DNA of 64,000 nt from contig NC_135670.1 in assembly GCF_964188315.1 (NCBI RefSeq), positions 992,001-1,056,000 of the forward strand, given 5' to 3'. Shown piece by piece: positions 3,921 to 37,300 of this stretch (positions are counted from its first letter, which is position 1; every line of letters starts with the position of its first letter). The DNA is from Podarcis muralis. Lineage: Eukaryota. A program made the position numbers.

Positions 3921-6900
3921 AAAGAAGAAGAGGAATACAAAGAAGAATACGAGTGTCTTACAAAGGATCGTCAATCATCGTTTGTGAAGGCTGCTCCATG
4001 AATGATGGGGTATTAGAGTGGAAGAAGACTTGAGAAACAATCTCACCAATGAGAAGGTCTCCGGGCTGATAAAAACCATGACGAATAGGGAGGGGATCCT
4101 CAAACATGCTGAAATTAATAAAATGTGTGTTGCATGCAGTATGACACAGCAGTACAAGAAGGAAGGCTACCACCAGCATGATCCTGTTCATAAAACTGTC
4201 CCTCCAAAGATGCAGTGCCATGTTTCTGAGTGTAACAATCTATGCAATTGCTATCAGTTTTGCTCCAGTCCCAATTGAATGGTGGGTGATATTGTTGCTA
4301 CATAAATATACAGCACAGTTGGTTAGGGAAGCTATGCACTGGTATCCTAATAATAGCTCCTTGTTCATCAGTGTTTCCAAATAGTCTGCTTTTATCCTTT
4401 GACAGAGAGTATGAATTGCAATGCTGTTGTTGCTTTCTTCCTTTAAAAATTAAATGAAATGATAAAACATTCTGTTGGTGTGCAAAGATGCCAAAATTAT
4501 AACCATGTGAATTCTCAATCTGTTTGCCCAGATGAACAGACAATACATTTCAGGGCATCTCTATTATTTCATATTGCTGAATAAGGTTAAGTTTTCCACA
4601 GGAATAATATGTGGTGTGGAAGTCAGCAAGGAAGAGAAAGTACGAGCAACAAATATGACCATGGTATCACGATTTCTGGTTAGAAATCATGGTGGAATAA
4701 CTTGGTAGAAGTCAAACCTAACATATAAAAATTTAGGGTAATAACAAAAGATGTCTGAGCCCTACCTGTTCCTAGATCCAATTCTGACAAATACAAGAGT
4801 TTTATACCTCTTTTCAAATGTTTATTCTTGCCCTTGCTCACTGGCTCTGGGTGCCGTTGCATCAGAGAGGGGAAAGCAGCAATTTTGACAATGATAGTGA
4901 TTATTATCATTTGTTTATGCCTTTGAAGTTGCAACCAGCACAACAAGATTGCTGAAAGTGATTTTCCTGGATTTTGCAGCTATTATTATCTCTTATCCCA
5001 TTAGCCAAAGTGGTACCTCAGGTTAAGATCGGTTTCAGGTTAAGAACGGACCTCCGGAATGAATTAAGTTTGTAACCAGAGGTACCACTGTACATACAAT
5101 CCAGCTACTAATTCCCCATTTGTATCTGTCCTACATGGGGAAGATAAACTCAGAGAATCTGGGTCTCATGTTTCACACTGATGATGTCTCTCCATGAAGG
5201 GATATACCTTTAGCACCCAATGAATGGAAGATCAGTGTATTAGCAGGATAACAAATTGGCAGAACAACTTTATGGAGTTAAAAATTGTTGTCAGCTTTAT
5301 TGGTTACAGATGTAGGTTGTAGGCTATTTCTAAGAATGAAAAGGATGAGTGTTGAGAAATACAAGGAATTACTTTCTCTGGTTTTCATCCAATAAATGCC
5401 AGCAAACAATGCAAAAATTAAAAGCATCAACGCAAGCTGATTCCTATTTGCTCCTCAGAATTAAGTGGCCTTTGCTGTTCAAGTCGGGCCTCAGAAGAAT
5501 GATGTACAATTTGGGGGCAAAGATACAACCCAGCAAACCTGCGCTGGAGGCCAAGATGCAAAAGACCTCCACAGCCACCATCTGCTTTCCTTTGGTGCTC
5601 AGATAAGAGGGAACAAAGGACAGCCAAACGCTGCAGAACACCAACATGCTGAAGGTGATGAACTTGGCTTCGTTGAAACTGTCCGGCAACCTCTTGGCCA
5701 GGAAAGCCATAGTGAAGCTGACCATGGCCAGGAATCCCAGATAACCCAGGACAGAATAAAACATCGCGACAGAACCTTCGTTGCATTCCACGATGATTTC
5801 CCCCGCCAGAGAGTTCATGTCCACATCTGGGAATGGAGGAGCCGTACAGAGCCAAGCAGCACAAATGCTGGTTTGAACTGAGCAGCAGCCAAGAAGCACA
5901 GAGTTTGTGAGAGATTTCCCCACCCATTTCCTCATCCTGGATCCTGGTTTGGTGGCCATGAAAGCCAGAACCACCGTGATGGTTTTGGCCAAGACACAAG
6001 ACACAGCAATGGAGAAGATGATGCCAAAGGCCGCTTGTCGTAAAGAGCAGCTGACTGGGTGAGGCTGGCCAATGAAGAGCAAGGAGCAGAGGAAGCAGAG
6101 CAAGAGGGCAAGGAGCAGAGTGTAGGTGAGGTCCCGGTTGTTGGCTTTGACAATGGGAGTGTCCCCATTCCTAGAGAAGACGCCAAGTATCCAAGCTGTG
6201 ACCAGAGAAAAGGCCAGAGCTAAGGAAGCTAAAAGGAACCCTAAAGGTTCTGCGTAGGAAAGAAAATGTTGGCGTTTGGGGATGCATTGATCTCTGTCCT
6301 TGTTTGGAAATTGGTCATCTTGGCAGTGGAAACAATAATCCATATCTAAAGAAAATAAAAATGAAATGAGTGATAAATGAGTTCCAACAAATAAGGCATT
6401 AATTAGTTGGAATATGTATCAGAGATAAGTGAATATTGAAAACTGTTTGTACAATCTCCTGCCATTATGCATAATCCACAATAGGCTCTATGTTTTGATG
6501 GGGCTAAGGTGCATGGATTGTTCATCTACTCTGTCCTTCATCTGGAGTTAGTGATCAGAAACATGGCCTTTGGTTGTGCCCTTAGCTAGAGTTGGTCACA
6601 ATTCTTTGTGGTACAATGTGCAAAATAGTAATACCAGATTCCCTAGGGAAAGTTGAAATAGGTATTAGGAAGCATTATACAAAATAGCAGATTACGTCTC
6701 CTACCCATTTGATTCGAAATCATCCCATGTGGACACGAAGCACAATCATAGCAACAAAATGGCAGCCCCTCCTTCTTTTTCCTGCTGTAGCCTGGCTGGC
6801 AGCGATCATTACACAAGGCAAGGGGCAGCACCTAGCCATAAAAAGAGGAGAAAATGTAGCTCTCTTGTGCCTTGTAAACAACACAGTTCTAACCAAAGAC

Positions 6901-34300: not shown

Positions 34301-37300
34301 GGAATCTTGTAGATGCTTAAGATACTAGCCATGTGGAGGGAGATGTCAGAGTCAAGTCCCCCAACAAAAGCTATCTTACTTTTCTTCTTCTCACATTTGA
34401 AGTTGGGGACAATCCCTTCTGCCATGGACAAAATTTTCAGCGTGTTCTGATAAGTCATCCTTTCTTTTGAGTAGTTCTCATATATGTGAAACCCAAAGGT
34501 CATATTCGGTACAATATTAGGGTTCTTGTTTATTTCTTTCACAGCAAACACCAGGGAGAGGGTATTCTGGTAGTACTTTGGTATGTCACTAATAAAAGAG
34601 TTATACTATATGTCAGAGGTATTCTCCTCCACATAGGTAACTTCTTGGCTCACATGCACGTATATAATTTGCCACATCCTTCCCTTAACTCCTTATTTCC
34701 TTTCAGCAACCAATGGACACCCATTGGATGAGAAGTTGCCAAGTCAAAAATTCTGACTGGTGCCTCTCAGATAGTAAGTGTTTGGTGTAGGTGGGGAGTA
34801 GAGAACAGATAACATTAGATGGAACAGAACCTATTATTTCCACAGTAATGGAGTTTCCATCTCTCCCTCCTTTAAATAAAATTATGGCTGTACCAAAAAT
34901 ACTGTAGCCAATGTAAGTCATACTCTGAGAAGGCCTATTATGATTAATAGATCAGACTAAGTTAGTTGTATTAATTTCAGTGGGTCTACTCTACAAATAA
35001 GCCAGATAGATACTTTGTTTTGCAAAAACAAGTTTGCAACTGCTCTTTTTATTATCCAATATGGTTTACATTGCATAGCAGAGAATATAATCCAAAATCT
35101 ATGATATTCATGTTTCACAGCATCTGTGACTGTCAGATTAAATTATTCTGATTGTGAATGTGAGGATCAATCTTTGCTGCAAAGGAAAACCAGGCGTTAA
35201 TGGTGTGAAAGGAAACACAGAGGGAGGATGAGGATGAAGTTGGGAGAAGGCGGTGAGAGCCATGGGATCAGGTGTTAAGAAAGCAGAACAGGTAGAAGAT
35301 AGAAACCTCAAGAAGTGGAATCAAGCAATGAAGAGGCCAAGATCACAATGTAAAGAGAAGAATATATATATATATTTAACATTCCTACTGGGGAAAAAAT
35401 CATGTGGAAATGTGTTCTGAGGATGCCATTGTATGTTTGGTGTAATTGTAGCATACATGAGCTCACCAAGGGTACACAATGAAGGATAGAGTTTTTTTAC
35501 TTACAAGAGTTCATCTATATGCTTTGTGTTTGGGCGCTCATGGAAATCGATTTCTTCAAATACAAAGTCAAAATAAGAAACAATTCCTCCAATGACTAGG
35601 TCCCCTCTCTGATAATTCTGGTATGGAAGCTGGAAAGGCTCCATCATGGTGCATCTAGCAGAGTGTTCCTTGCTCTCAGTTGGAGGCAACTGCAGCCACA
35701 GGAAGAGAAGAATCAGCAGCAGAAATGTTCTGACCATCTTGGGGCCAGCGGGGATGCCGAAAGTCAGATTTCTATCTCATCTACCATAAACTTCTTTCCA
35801 AGAACATTCATTTCATGACTCTAGGTTGTTTTGATAAAGGGAAAAAGCCAAAGCTCTGATCTATGAAAATCTGCATGTTCAGAATTTCTCATCAGGGGTC
35901 TGAATAACACAGGATTTATTTTATATACACTTTCACACTCTGACATTGATTGTGTTCATGGCCTGAAAAAGTGTACATGGAATTTGGCAAGATTGATGAT
36001 AAAACCCAGCAGTTTGAGATAATTACTGGTTCCAAAGTTATCTCCTTAGAGGAATGAGCTCTGTGACTTACAGTAAGATGAAAATAATGATGCATATTTG
36101 TTCTTGAGTAGTGCCCTGGTAATTGCGCCTGCATCCCAGTACAGCATTCGCCACTCTGTTGTTGACTATGAGGGCCACTCCATTTCTTTTACGGGTTTCT
36201 TGCCCACAGTAGTAGATATGATGGTCATCTGAACTGAATTCGCCCGGACACGACTAAACGACTAAACAACAAATTGCGAGTGCCCCAGGCAAGCAAGCAG
36301 TCCAGCTGCAAACTGGTGCCCTGAAGGGAGCTTCCTTGATTTCCCAACACTCTTCCTCAATCACACCTGCACCATTTCCCCCAACTGTACATGTGTCACC
36401 AATGGAGACATGATTTTCAGGATTTTCAGGGATGTTTCCTGTGTACCAGTTAAAGGGAGAGAGGGAAGGATTCAGAAATCCTGTATTACATGGGCTAACA
36501 GCAGAAACTGACTTGCTACTGTATATAAAAAATATAGATCAATGCATATGGAAGTGGAGAATTTCCTTTTGTTATCTTAGAGTTGGAGAGCAATGTGAGA
36601 GACTCATGAAGGTGACAATGGAGGCTTAAATGCAGTGGTACAACTTGAAACATACAATGCATGTGGTTGTGGCATGTGGGAAGAGAAAGGGCAGTAAGGT
36701 CATGAAATTGACAAAGTGACTGACAGAGACAAGCTGAAGGTTAAGTTCCAATATTTACCTTTTTATAGGGTGGGGTAGATAATATATAAGATCCTTCTTG
36801 AGTTTTCACTGTTACCCCTCAGTGGGAGAATGGTCTCCCTGGGAAGGGCCTGGGTTTTGCCCCTTTGGGGGCTGTCACAATGAACTCCTGAACTTCAGAA
36901 TTCACCACTGCACCACTGGTCAAGAGAATAAGAAAGAGTCTGTATGGTGTTTGGGTGAGATATAATAATTTTTTTAGAAAGAAAAACGTTGTTATGGCTA
37001 TCCCACACCAAAGCAAATGCCCTAAAGAAAATTAATATGGAAAGGAAATGGGGCACTTATAGAGATATATTGACTTTTGCTGGTGCTGGTTTTAAACTTA
37101 AAAAATTAGAAGACATCGAGGACCGAGTACAAGACTGTGAGTAGGCCCAGTGAGACCCAACAGGACCTGTTGCTGCCGCAGAAAGATCCAATGGGGCCTG
37201 CCGCTGGTAGTCCTGCCAAGGCCCGGCCCCTCAAGATGGCAGGGGTCTCAGTCCCATCCCAATATATTTGGGGTAGGGGCTGAGGTGTCCTAAGACTCAT

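What the first reader, a model, noticed from the sequence alone, without database searches (positions are those of the whole stretch)
5444..35737. Paralogs B and D: ligand-binding exons diverged, 7TM exon nearly identical
Seen (hand counts): amino-acid differences are about 6/78 in exon 1 (all after residue 47), 23/97 in exon 2, 26/289 in exon 3, but 3/299 in exon 6. Exon 6 shows only ~4 synonymous changes, while the shared introns look several-fold more divergent. Known: exons 1-3 encode the Venus flytrap ligand domain. Inference: positive selection on the binding lobe, plus gene conversion or strong constraint on the 7TM exon; the pair may be a receptor specificity switch in progress.
[Added by the scan's program, not by the reader: the finding's places include an assembly gap (unread letters, written N; its length is only estimated) at 22592 to 22729. 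Whether the letters on both sides are continuous or in frame is not known: test that first.]
Basis: partly seen in the sequence, partly recalled or inferred. Interest (0 to 1): 0.65.

Follow-up and report, generated by a model that had tools for sequence, protein, structure and literature searches.

The report
Lizard pheromone-receptor twins share one exon
Two neighbouring wall-lizard vomeronasal receptor genes differ in their ligand-binding part but have had their membrane-spanning exon copied from one to the other, an ordinary case of gene conversion in a chemoreceptor family.

Summary
B (12674-5444, minus) and D (35737-30022, minus) are two intact six-exon type-2 vomeronasal receptor genes in a Podarcis muralis-like window. 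Amino-acid differences per exon are 6/77, 23/97, 28/289, 6/76, 2/42 and 3/299.

- **Exon 6 is a conversion patch.** It has 4 synonymous changes. Only 1 of 141 fourfold sites differs, against 192 of 1923 intron sites (p=1.6e-5). Near-identity runs 87 nt past the stop and is bounded on both sides.
- **The exons give conflicting trees.** Exon 2 and most of exon 3 join B with its P. raffonei orthologue and reject B+D. The end of exon 3 and exon 6 join B+D and reject B+raffonei.
- **Positive selection is not shown.** Exon 2 dN/dS is 0.69-1.20 and exon 3 is 1.13-1.42, neither significantly above 1. D's protein does change about 2.4 times faster than B's. It has a burst in a loop that lies above the binding cleft in CaSR.
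- **The N gap does not touch B or D.** It lies in intron 3 of gene C.

This is a new member of a known kind, of low to moderate interest.

The parts
5444..12674 (-). Gene B, an intact six-exon V2R. Exons: 12674-12442, 10738-10447, 9955-9089, 8406-8179, 6831-6705 and 6345-5444 (stop included).
   Evidence: tblastn of database V2R proteins. GT-AG splice sites and open frames. Pfam matches exon by exon. Closest protein is P. raffonei P0003: 83/83 identical in exon 2 and 275/289 in exon 3.
30022..35737 (-). Gene D, an intact six-exon V2R and paralogue of B. Exons: 35737-35505, 34588-34297, 33794-32928, 31935-31708, 31164-31038 and 30923-30022 (stop included).
   Evidence: Same exon lengths, phases and splice sites as B. 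The duplicated unit is B 4997-13179 against D 29415-36425. The protein database holds no relative closer to D than P0003 (89%).
5357..6172 (-). Core of the exon 6 conversion patch in B. It covers most of the 7TM exon plus 87 nt beyond the stop codon.
   Evidence: There are 4 differences in 816 nt, with identical runs of 325 and 329 nt. Best silent segment is 6149-5359 with 1 difference in 200 sites; 0 of 200 permutations reach it. Silent divergence is 2/228 in the patch, against 17/327 in the distal 3' flank (p=0.007) and 35/266 in introns 4+5 (p=4e-8).
29935..30750 (-). The same exon 6 conversion patch in D.
   Evidence: This is the aligned partner of B 6172-5357.
9089..9322 (-). Second B+D patch, B copy: the last 78 codons of exon 3 (aa 212-289).
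   Evidence: 4 nucleotide and 3 amino-acid differences. Six residues are shared by B and D but differ in P0003, P0004 and P0005. The tree joins B+D at 91/94, and B+raffonei is rejected at AU p=0.0036. I chose the cut point after seeing the quartets.
32928..33161 (-). Second B+D patch, D copy: the last 78 codons of exon 3.
   Evidence: This is the aligned partner of B 9322-9089.
34462..34485 (-). D-lineage burst in exon 2 (codons 35-42). Six of eight residues differ from B, at codons 35, 37, 38, 40, 41 and 42.
   Evidence: B is identical to P. raffonei here, and the five changes at codons 37-42 match none of the four outgroups. The stretch aligns to CaSR residues 97-104, which include T100 and N102. 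These residues form Ca2+ site 2, 'directly above the interdomain crevice' (PMC4977154, passages read).
22592..22729 (.). Assembly gap (138 N) inside intron 3 of gene C. It touches no exon of B or D.
   Evidence: locates the N run. C exon 3 ends at 23671 with a GT donor, and C exon 4 starts at 19782 after an AG, both in phase 0. The left edge is a SINE-like repeat and the right edge an L1-like fragment. Protein P0122 matches C exons on both sides exactly.
17197..28562 (-). Gene C, a more distant V2R paralogue lying between B and D. Approximate exons: 28562-28347, 26396-26118, 24516-23671, 19782-19555, about 18411-18268, and 18099-17197.
   Evidence: tblastn. Identical to P. muralis protein P0122 in exon 3 (282/282), exon 4 (76/76) and exon 6 (298/298). 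About 40% identical to B in exon 3.
13770..16534 (-). Non-LTR retrotransposon (endonuclease plus reverse transcriptase ORFs) between B and C, just outside the duplicated unit.
   Evidence: Pfam Exo_endo_phos (2.7e-11) and RVT_1 (2.1e-34).

Best explanation
B and D are two intact paralogous type-2 vomeronasal receptor genes (class C GPCRs) in a tandem V2R cluster of a Podarcis muralis-like wall lizard.

**History.** They arose from a single-gene duplication of about 8 kb. That duplication is older than the split of this lineage from P. raffonei. Background silent divergence is about 0.10-0.14.

**Conversion.** Since then, interlocus gene conversion has overwritten at least two patches:
- the 7TM exon plus about 87 nt of 3' flank;
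- the last 78 codons of exon 3.

B and D are almost identical in those patches. Exon 1, exon 2 and most of exon 3 keep the old divergence.

**Why the patch edges sit near exon edges (inferred).** The neighbouring introns are broken by large indels and transposon insertions, so the exons are the longest uninterrupted homology available.

**Selection.** Purifying selection on the 7TM adds to the identity. In the unconverted Venus flytrap part, D changes about 2.4 times faster than B, with average dN/dS near 1. That fits relaxed constraint or a mix of constraint and adaptive change. Several D changes sit in loops that border the ligand cleft in CaSR, so a change of ligand preference in D is plausible but not shown.
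For: **Family and gene structure.** Pfam gives ANF_receptor, NCD3G and 7tm_3 exon by exon. The best database relatives are all named 'vomeronasal type-2 receptor 26-like' from lacertids.

**Silent sites.**
- Exon 6 fourfold sites differ at 1/141, against 192/1923 in introns (p=1.6e-5) and 19/415 in the 3' flank (p=0.035).
- Synonymous differences are 4 of about 208 sites in exon 6 and 9 of about 60 in exon 2 (p=2.8e-4).
- The patch is bounded on both sides, p=0.007 and 4e-8.

**Conflicting trees, exon by exon.**

| Partition | Supported pair | Rejected pair (AU p) |
|---|---|---|
| Exon 2 | B+P0003, 99/92 | B+D, 0.0017 |
| Exon 3 aa 1-211 | B+P0003, 97/91 | B+D, 0.030 |
| Exon 3 aa 212-289 | B+D, 91/94 | B+P0003, 0.0036 |
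| Exon 6 | B+D, 93/92 | B+P0003, 0.0073 |

**Quartet sites.** With P0004 as fourth sequence:

| Region | B+raffonei sites | B+D sites |
|---|---|---|
| Exon 2 | 4 | 0 |
| Exon 3, up to aa 206 | 7 | 0 |
| Exon 3, aa 217-284 | 0 | 6 |
| Exon 6 | 0 | 5 (plus 1 D+raffonei) |

Fisher for exon 2 against exon 6 gives p=0.008.

**Homology breaks.** B 6396-6684 against D 30964-31017 is unalignable, and homology ends about 30 nt after the exon 3 donor.

**D acceleration.** Lineage-specific replacements in exons 2+3 are 24 in D against 10 in B with P0007 as outgroup (p=0.016), and 29 against 11 with P0005 (p=0.004).
Against: - **No lizard DNA from other species was available.** All comparisons with other species are at the protein level, so synonymous changes could not be assigned to lineages. 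The direction of conversion is not settled.
- **No orthologue of D was found.** Neither P. raffonei nor L. agilis shows one among the proteins returned. The claim that the duplication predates the species split therefore rests on shared derived residues and AU tests, one of which is only p=0.03.
- **The exon 3 cut was chosen after the data were seen.**
- **P0004 is a same-species paralogue, not an orthologue.** It comes from the same species as the window.
- **Exons in general look less diverged than introns.** Fourfold sites in exons 1-5 differ at 9/202, against 10% in introns (p=0.008). Either more old patches exist or my intron columns are noisy.
- **The last 78 codons of exon 3 are odd in B as well.** B differs from P. 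raffonei at 9/78 there, against 5/211 in the rest of exon 3. A third, unseen donor may be involved.
- **Only one assembly was seen.** It contains a scaffold gap between B and D.
Confidence: 0.7

Rival explanations
1. The Venus flytrap exons of D (or of both genes) diverged under positive selection for a new ligand, while conversion or constraint keeps the signalling exon alike: a specificity switch in progress. This is an addition to the conversion explanation rather than an alternative to it.
For: - D carries 24 lineage-specific replacements against 10 in B in exons 2+3.
- Six of eight residues differ in exon 2 codons 35-42, which align to CaSR 97-104 including T100 and N102.
- Further changes align to CaSR S83/S84. 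By extending the gap-free alignments, others fall at 139/141/142 and at Y167/S171, next to A168/S170.
- Exon 3 dN/dS is 1.13-1.42.
- If nearly all exon 2 replacements are D's and the synonymous changes are split evenly, D's exon 2 ratio would be about 1.4. This is my inference.
Against: - No dN/dS estimate is significantly above 1: one-sided p=0.85 for exon 2 and 0.49 for exon 3, with pooled pN/pS 0.85.
- The same numbers fit plain relaxation of constraint.
- The positions aligned to the CaSR amino-acid contacts S147, S170, Y218 and E297 are identical in B and D (S, L, N, A).
- D also has all 3 of the replacements in exon 6 when polarised with P0004, P0005 or P0007. That looks like general relaxation.
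- No expression or ligand data are available.
Confidence: 0.25
2. The reverse history. The duplication is recent, exon 6 shows its true age, and the 5' two-thirds of D were later replaced by an older paralogue not present in the window. The replacement would be by unequal crossing-over or a long conversion, making D a chimera.
For: - The mosaic alone cannot say which part was overwritten.
- In exon 2, D groups weakly with the same-species paralogue P0004 (74/74).
- D shares residues with P0004 at exon 2 sites 35, 70 and 74 and at exon 3 sites 94, 103 and 135.
Against: - The low-divergence parts are short and internal. Exon 6 is flanked on the 3' side by sequence at 5.2% (17/327) and on the 5' side by introns at 12-13%. 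A single crossover would leave only one switch point.
- Most of the 8-kb unit, including the 5' flank (K80 0.115) and introns 1, 3 and 4 (0.11-0.14), shares the older divergence.
- D is no closer to P0004 than B is: 16 against 8 differences in exon 2, and 25 against 21 in exon 3 aa 1-211.
Confidence: 0.12
3. Assembly or polishing artefact. Reads from two similar 7TM exons were mixed during consensus calling, which made the two copies look more alike than they are.
For: - The window is a scaffold with an N gap between B and D.
- The V2R 7TM exons are the most similar part of the family. P0007 is 90% identical to B in exon 6 but 75% in exon 3. They are therefore the part most prone to read mis-mapping.
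Against: - Seven differences remain spread over exon 6, and 4 over the exon 3 patch.
- Gene C in the same scaffold matches an independent L. agilis orthologue on both sides of the gap.
- An artefact does not explain the six residues in the exon 3 patch that B and D share and that no other fetched protein has.
- This could not be tested directly without reads.
Confidence: 0.08
4. Purifying selection only. The 7TM exon is identical because every change, including synonymous ones, is selected against or because the local mutation rate is low.
For: - Exon 6 dN/dS is the lowest of the six exons (0.22-0.30).
- The 7TM is the most conserved part across all relatives.
Against: - Fourfold sites differ at 1/141 against 10% in introns.
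- Near-identity continues 87 nt past the stop codon (1/87).
- B differs from its P. raffonei orthologue at 9 of 299 residues in exon 6 but from D at only 3. The tree with B+raffonei is rejected (p=0.0073) although it holds in exons 2-3. Constraint cannot produce that switch.
Confidence: 0.04

Closest known systems
Squamate type-2 vomeronasal receptors (V2R, class C GPCR), annotated 'vomeronasal type-2 receptor 26-like'
   Same: - Same domain order: Venus flytrap, nine-cysteine domain, 7TM.
- Six exons, with the 7TM in one exon.
- A tandem cluster of at least five V2R genes in the window.
- Best relatives are lacertid V2Rs: P0003 95-100% identical to B per exon, and P0122 identical to C.
- V2R expansion by tandem duplication in squamates is described in PMC3590772 and in 10.1101/551978 (passages read).
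   Different: Nothing about the genes themselves is unusual. The proteins of B and D were not seen as such in the protein database.
Gene conversion among V2R-like OlfC paralogues in fish (GENECONV tracts in catfish OlfC subfamily 9), and among V1R and odorant receptor paralogues
   Same: Concerted evolution makes paralogues within a species look closer than orthologues, and it distorts gene trees. This is stated in PMC6588630 (passages read). PMC2644715 on V1R was seen only in a search listing.
   Different: - This case is in a squamate. PMC3590772 left conversion among squamate V2Rs as an open possibility 'that could be investigated'.
- Here the tract is mapped to exon 6 plus the end of exon 3, with the ligand-binding exons spared.
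- I could not see the fish paper's supplementary tract table (supplements are closed). I therefore cannot say whether their tracts are also limited to the 7TM exon.
Human calcium-sensing receptor extracellular domain (PDB 5K5S/5K5T, 5FBK; Geng et al. 2016, PMC4977154)
   Same: Exons 2 and 3 align to CaSR residues 73-164 and 173-459 (E 1e-8 and 1e-29). The serine that holds the ligand carboxylate (S147) is kept in both B and D.
   Different: - The positions of S170, Y218 and E297 are L, N and A in both B and D. These receptors therefore lack most of the amino-acid contact set of CaSR.
- The mapping is by sequence alignment only. No 3D model of B or D was made.
Primate L/M opsin genes
   Same: Tandem paralogues are homogenised by gene conversion over most of their length, while a few function-defining exons stay different.
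   Different: This is an analogy of mechanism only. The receptor class is different, and selection against conversion in the diverged exons is not shown here.

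Membership tests
Type-2 vomeronasal receptor (class C GPCR) | N-terminal Venus flytrap (ANF_receptor) domain | tested here: met
   Exon 3 of B scores 2e-28 and exon 3 of D 4.1e-28. Exon 2 scores 1.7e-6 and 1.2e-7. The start of exon 4 scores 3e-4, below the curated cut-off on its own.
Type-2 vomeronasal receptor (class C GPCR) | Nine-cysteine domain (NCD3G) between the flytrap and the membrane part | tested here: met
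   Exon 5 of B scores 1.9e-13 and exon 5 of D 1.5e-13, both above the cut-off.
Type-2 vomeronasal receptor (class C GPCR) | 7tm_3 seven-helix domain | tested here: met
   Exon 6 of B scores 1e-82 and exon 6 of D 5.5e-83, each covering the full 251-position profile.
Type-2 vomeronasal receptor (class C GPCR) | Intact reading frame and canonical splice sites through all six exons | tested here: met
   There are no stops in any exon, all introns are GT-AG, and exon lengths and phases are equal in B and D. I checked this exon by exon and did not build the joined coding sequence.
Type-2 vomeronasal receptor (class C GPCR) | Expression in vomeronasal sensory neurons | not testable with these tools
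   No expression data are available.
Amino-acid-sensing class C receptors (CaSR / OlfC type) | Conserved ligand-contact residues: CaSR S147, S170, Y218 and E297 (PMC4977154). These are part of the 8-residue signature described in PMC1764893. | tested here: not met
   By alignment to CaSR chains (S170 by extending the gap-free alignment), B and D both have S, L, N and A at these positions. Only 1 of 4 is kept. PMC1764893 reports that the motif is also absent from most mouse V2Rs.
Interlocus gene conversion tract | Silent-site divergence in the tract is significantly below that of the rest of the duplicated unit | tested here: met
   1/141 against 192/1923 (p=1.6e-5), with 0 of 200 permutations reaching the observed segment. 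Synonymous differences in exon 6 against exon 2 give p=2.8e-4.
Interlocus gene conversion tract | The tract is internal, with older sequence on both sides | tested here: met
   2/228 in the tract, against 17/327 on the 3' side (p=0.007) and 35/266 on the 5' side (p=4e-8).
Interlocus gene conversion tract | The tree of the tract conflicts with the tree of the flanking parts | tested here: met
   AU tests reject B+D in exon 2 (p=0.0017) and reject B+P. raffonei in exon 6 (p=0.0073). These are protein-level trees of 10 sequences, using LG+G4.
Interlocus gene conversion tract | Both copies confirmed by independent reads or a second assembly | not testable with these tools
   No reads or lizard genome collection are available. 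The contig collections on offer are closed or prokaryotic.
Positively selected ligand-binding domain | dN/dS significantly above 1 in the binding exons | tested here: not met
   Exon 2 is 0.69-1.20 and exon 3 is 1.13-1.42 by four estimators. One-sided Fisher p=0.85 and 0.49.
Positively selected ligand-binding domain | Site or branch-site models with orthologous codon alignments | not testable with these tools
   No orthologous lizard DNA could be fetched. Only proteins of other species were available.

The most novel reading that the evidence does not exclude
The mosaic may be maintained rather than accidental. On this reading, conversion repeatedly resets the signalling (7TM) exon of neighbouring V2R paralogues, while selection removes conversions that would erase the diverged cleft loops of D. 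The pair would then keep one signalling module and two ligand modules, and D's burst at the loop aligned to CaSR 97-104 would be an adaptive change of ligand.

One consequence would follow. V2R trees built from the transmembrane domain alone, as used for squamate repertoires (10.1101/551978), would date such duplications too young and inflate 'species-specific expansions'. Exon 6 does exactly that for B and D here.
Probability: 0.2. Interest if true: 0.45.

Novelty: new member of a known kind. Interest (0 to 1): 0.25.

Why it matters
This is a clean worked example of partial, exon-scale gene conversion between two squamate V2R genes. Brykczynska et al. 2013 (PMC3590772) left that process open for squamates.

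The practical lesson concerns method. For this pair the 7TM exon says 'recent, species-specific duplicate', while the ligand-binding exons say the duplication is older than the split from P. raffonei. Repertoire studies that build V2R trees from the 7TM exon or transmembrane domain alone may therefore overcount lineage-specific expansions. Tests for positive selection on such pairs need the converted parts removed first.

Biologically it adds little that is unexpected. Faster, near-neutral evolution of the N-terminal domain and a conserved 7TM are the known pattern for this family (PMC1764893).

Tried and rejected
**Alternatives considered and rejected.**
- **Haplotigs placed in tandem.** Rejected. 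Homology ends at the edges of the single-gene unit, introns differ by about 10%, and the flanks are unrelated.
- **A two-gene block duplication (A-B and C-D).** Rejected. A and C share only about 70% identity in two exon pieces and no intron homology.
- **In-frame retention of D's short intron 5 (114 nt).** tblastn ran through it, but the frame holds stops.
- **D's C166Y change in exon 6 as loss of a key cysteine.** Not pursued. The in-window paralogues C and E have A and S at that position, so it is variable.

**Searches that found nothing.**
- **A D-type orthologue.** A search with D exon 3 returned the same top relatives as B, the best being P0003 at 89%.
- **A donor for the B+D-specific residues at the end of exon 3.** Six short motifs were scanned against the 229 fetched proteins, with no hit.

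**Steps that could not be made.**
- **Cluster members of P0003, P0004 and P0005.** Whether B and D sit inside the P0004 cluster stayed unchecked.
- **A 3D map of the changes on an AlphaFold model.** Not done. It needs the joined Venus flytrap sequence, which was left out by instruction, and the fold tool returns no coordinates. I used sequence alignment to CaSR instead.
- **Codon-level analysis with orthologues.** codeml site models, GARD and GENECONV were not possible. No lizard DNA collection was available: metagenome and viral contigs are closed, and genome contigs is prokaryotic and was not used.

**Literature.**
- 'Vmn2r' plus 'gene conversion' gave 4 papers, none on V2R conversion tracts judging by their titles and abstracts.
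- 'Podarcis' plus 'V2R' plus 'vomeronasal' gave 10 papers, none describing this pair judging by the listing.

Full report
**What the window is.** The window has 43% G+C, a CpG observed/expected ratio of 0.32, and one N run at 22592-22729. Stop-to-stop frames and Pfam show several class C GPCR genes. Database relatives are all lizard and snake 'vomeronasal type-2 receptor 26-like' proteins. Gene C's exons are identical to a named Podarcis muralis protein, P0122: exon 3 282/282, exon 4 76/76, exon 6 298/298. The window is therefore P. muralis or something nearly identical to it. It is not human.

tblastn places five V2R genes:
- A, minus strand, running off the start of the window;
- B, C and D, minus strand;
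- E, plus strand, with a further exon-1-like piece at 62886-63059.

**How the analyses were run.** All searches, alignments, trees and dN/dS estimates were done exon by exon. 

**The gap, tested first.** The 138 N lie between C exon 3 and C exon 4. Exon 3 ends at 23671 with a GT donor in phase 0, and exon 4 starts at 19782 after an AG in phase 0. The gap is thus in an intron of a third gene, where frame is not an issue. Its left edge is a SINE-like repeat and its right edge an L1-like fragment. No V2R-like coding match lies between 19782 and 23668.

Continuity cannot be proven without reads, but two results fit the join:
- P0122 matches C exons on both sides. It was probably predicted from the same assembly, so this is not independent evidence.
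- The L. agilis protein P0124 matches exons on both sides: 82.7% in exon 3, 83.3% in exon 4, and 75% across exons 5-6 with the intron read through.

B lies on the left contig and D on the right, so their distance and linkage depend on the scaffold. No B-D comparison crosses the gap, and I did not fill it.

**The observation.** B 4997-13179 and D 29415-36425 are one duplicated single-gene unit. I fixed the exon model from relatives and splice sites. Both genes have six exons of equal length, GT-AG introns, and no stops.

Amino-acid differences are 6/77, 23/97, 28/289, 6/76, 2/42 and 3/299. Exon 6 has 7 nucleotide differences, of which 4 are synonymous.

| Non-coding part | K80 |
|---|---|
| 5' flank | 0.115 |
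| Intron 1 | 0.113 |
| Intron 2 | 0.058 |
| Intron 3 | 0.141 |
| Intron 4 | 0.128 |
| 3' flank | 0.047 |

Intron 5 is mostly unalignable because of indels.

**Is exon 6 more alike than constraint explains?** Yes.
- Fourfold sites differ at 1/141 in exon 6, against 192/1923 in introns (p=1.6e-5) and 19/415 in the 3' flank (p=0.035).
- At the intron rate 20.7 synonymous differences are expected, and 4 are seen (P=9e-6).
- Exon 6 dS is 0.015-0.020, while exon 2 dS is 0.11-0.17. The counts differ at p=2.8e-4.
- The best low-divergence silent segment is B 6149-5359, with 1 difference in 200 sites. It runs 85 nt past the stop, and 0 of 200 permutations reach it.
- The first 87 nt after the stop hold 1 difference. 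The next 327 reliable columns hold 17.
- The patch is bounded on both sides: 2/228 silent differences inside, against 17/327 on the 3' side (p=0.007) and 35/266 in introns 4+5 (p=4e-8).

**Tree conflict.** I aligned each exon's translation with five groups of relatives:
- P0003, from P. raffonei;
- P0004, a P. muralis paralogue;
- P0005, from L. agilis;
- P0007 and P0012, more distant paralogues;
- three further outgroups.

| Comparison | Exon 2 | Exon 3 aa 1-211 | Exon 3 aa 212-289 | Exon 6 |
|---|---|---|---|---|
| B against P0003, differences | 0 of 83 | 5 | 9 | 9 |
| B against D, differences | 23 of 97 | 25 | 3 | 3 |
| Supported pair | B+P0003, 99/92 | B+P0003, 97/91 | B+D, 91/94 | B+D, 93/92 |
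| Rejected pair, AU p | B+D, 0.0017 | B+D, 0.030 | B+P0003, 0.0036 | B+P0003, 0.0073 |

I chose the exon 3 cut after seeing the quartet sites, so it counts for less.

Parsimony-informative quartets tell the same story. With P0004 as fourth sequence, exon 2 has 4 B+raffonei sites and no B+D sites. Exon 3 up to aa 206 has 7 and 0. Exon 3 aa 217-284 has 0 and 6. Exon 6 has 0 and 5, plus 1 site joining D with raffonei. With L. agilis or P0007 as fourth sequence the counts are smaller but show the same pattern.

At several sites B and P. raffonei share a derived residue while D keeps the state of two or three outgroups (exon 2 sites 22 and 64; exon 3 sites 195 and 206). A fast D branch alone would not produce that. 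So the duplication is older than the split from P. raffonei, and the B+D patches are later copies.

**Why the patches end near exon edges (inference).** Homology between B and D is broken in two places:
- about 50 nt upstream of exon 6, where B 6396-6684 faces D 30964-31017;
- about 30 nt after the exon 3 donor, where D carries a different insert.

The exons are the longest uninterrupted homologous stretches, so tracts would tend to stop there. Direction is not settled. In exon 6 the shared B/D sequence is closer to P. raffonei (9-10 differences) than to P0004 (17-20). That fits B as donor.

The end of exon 3 is odd in both copies. They share six derived residues that none of the 229 fetched proteins shows, which suggests an unseen third donor or a local burst.

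**Selection on the binding part.** Pairwise dN/dS by NG86, LWL85, YN00 and ML:

| Exon | dN/dS range |
|---|---|
| 1 | 0.55-0.99 |
| 2 | 0.69-1.20 |
| 3 | 1.13-1.42 |
| 4 | 0.75-1.10 |
| 5 | 0.25-0.36 |
| 6 | 0.22-0.30 |

None is significantly above 1, and pooled pN/pS for exons 1-3 is 0.85 (p=0.49). Positive selection is therefore not shown; the average is near neutral.

The divergence is lopsided. Polarised with P0007, D has 24 and B has 10 lineage-specific replacements in exons 2+3 (p=0.016). With L. agilis the counts are 29 and 11 (p=0.004). Over all exons they are 33 and 13 (p=0.003).

**Where D's changes fall.** I aligned the exons to CaSR chains and read passages of Geng et al. 2016 (PMC4977154).
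- D's burst at exon 2 codons 35-42 aligns to CaSR 97-104. This includes T100 and N102 of Ca2+ site 2, 'directly above the interdomain crevice' and next to the L-Trp site.
- E21K and S22N align to S83 and S84, in the site 1 loop.
- By extending the gap-free alignments, other changes align to 139/141/142 and to Y167/S171, next to A168/S170.

The CaSR ligand contacts S147, S170, Y218 and E297 correspond to S, L, N and A in both genes. B and D therefore lack most of that contact set, as do most mouse V2Rs (PMC1764893), and they do not differ there. This is a sequence mapping only.

**Comparison with what is known.**
- V2R expansion by tandem duplication in squamates is established (PMC3590772; 10.1101/551978; passages read).
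- Gene conversion among V2R-like OlfC genes has been reported in fish with GENECONV (PMC6588630). I could not see its tract table, because supplements are closed.
- For squamate V2Rs, conversion was named as a possibility to be investigated (PMC3590772).
- Relaxed constraint on the N-terminal domain, with a conserved 7TM, is the family's known pattern (PMC1764893).
- My searches for this pair, or for V2R exon-limited conversion, found nothing specific. These searches cover only the open-access library.

**Verdict.** Gene conversion of exon 6, and of the end of exon 3, is well supported, with purifying selection on top. Positive selection is not shown. D is the fast copy, with changes near the cleft.

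The case is an ordinary but clean instance of a known process. Its main use is as a caution: 7TM-only V2R trees can date duplications too young.

**What stayed unchecked.**
- Codon-level analysis with orthologue DNA.
- Read-level confirmation of both copies.
- The members of the 90% protein clusters.
- A 3D model of B or D.
- Expression of D.

Noticed in passing
window 11611-11958 and 32383-32731: A roughly 348-nt element sits in intron 1 of B. It also sits in inverted orientation in intron 3 of D, at 96.3% identity. That is more alike than the surrounding duplicated DNA, so it looks like a young repeat inserted independently after the duplication.
   Followed up: no
window 24836-25018 (minus): A stretch upstream of C exon 3, in intron 2, matches residues 285-345 of C's own protein P0122 at 57% identity. 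This looks like a degraded partial copy of exon 3.
   Followed up: no
window 62886-63059 (plus): An exon-1-like V2R piece lies near the window's end, similar to E's exon 1 at 48382-48555. It suggests that a sixth V2R gene starts there.
   Followed up: no
window 13770-16534 (minus) and 44448-46362 (plus): Non-LTR retrotransposon ORFs. Endonuclease and reverse transcriptase lie between B and C, and a second reverse-transcriptase ORF lies between D and E. Three more long ORFs inside E's introns (51730-52299, 53635-54153, 54804-55433) gave no Pfam match.
   Followed up: partly
window 40199-41016: A G+C-rich stretch has long open frames on both strands and in several frames. Tandem Repeats Finder reports only short arrays nearby, for example 40059-40114. 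The cause of the multi-frame openness was not worked out.
   Followed up: partly
window 29588-29751: D carries a 164-nt insertion in its 3' flank that B lacks, about 270 nt after the stop codon.
   Followed up: no
window 10447-10737 vs 34297-34587 (exon 2): In exon 2, D groups weakly (74/74) with the same-species paralogue P0004, which is not in the window, and shares residues with it at sites 35, 70 and 74. This hints at exchange with, or common descent from, a third family member.
   Followed up: partly
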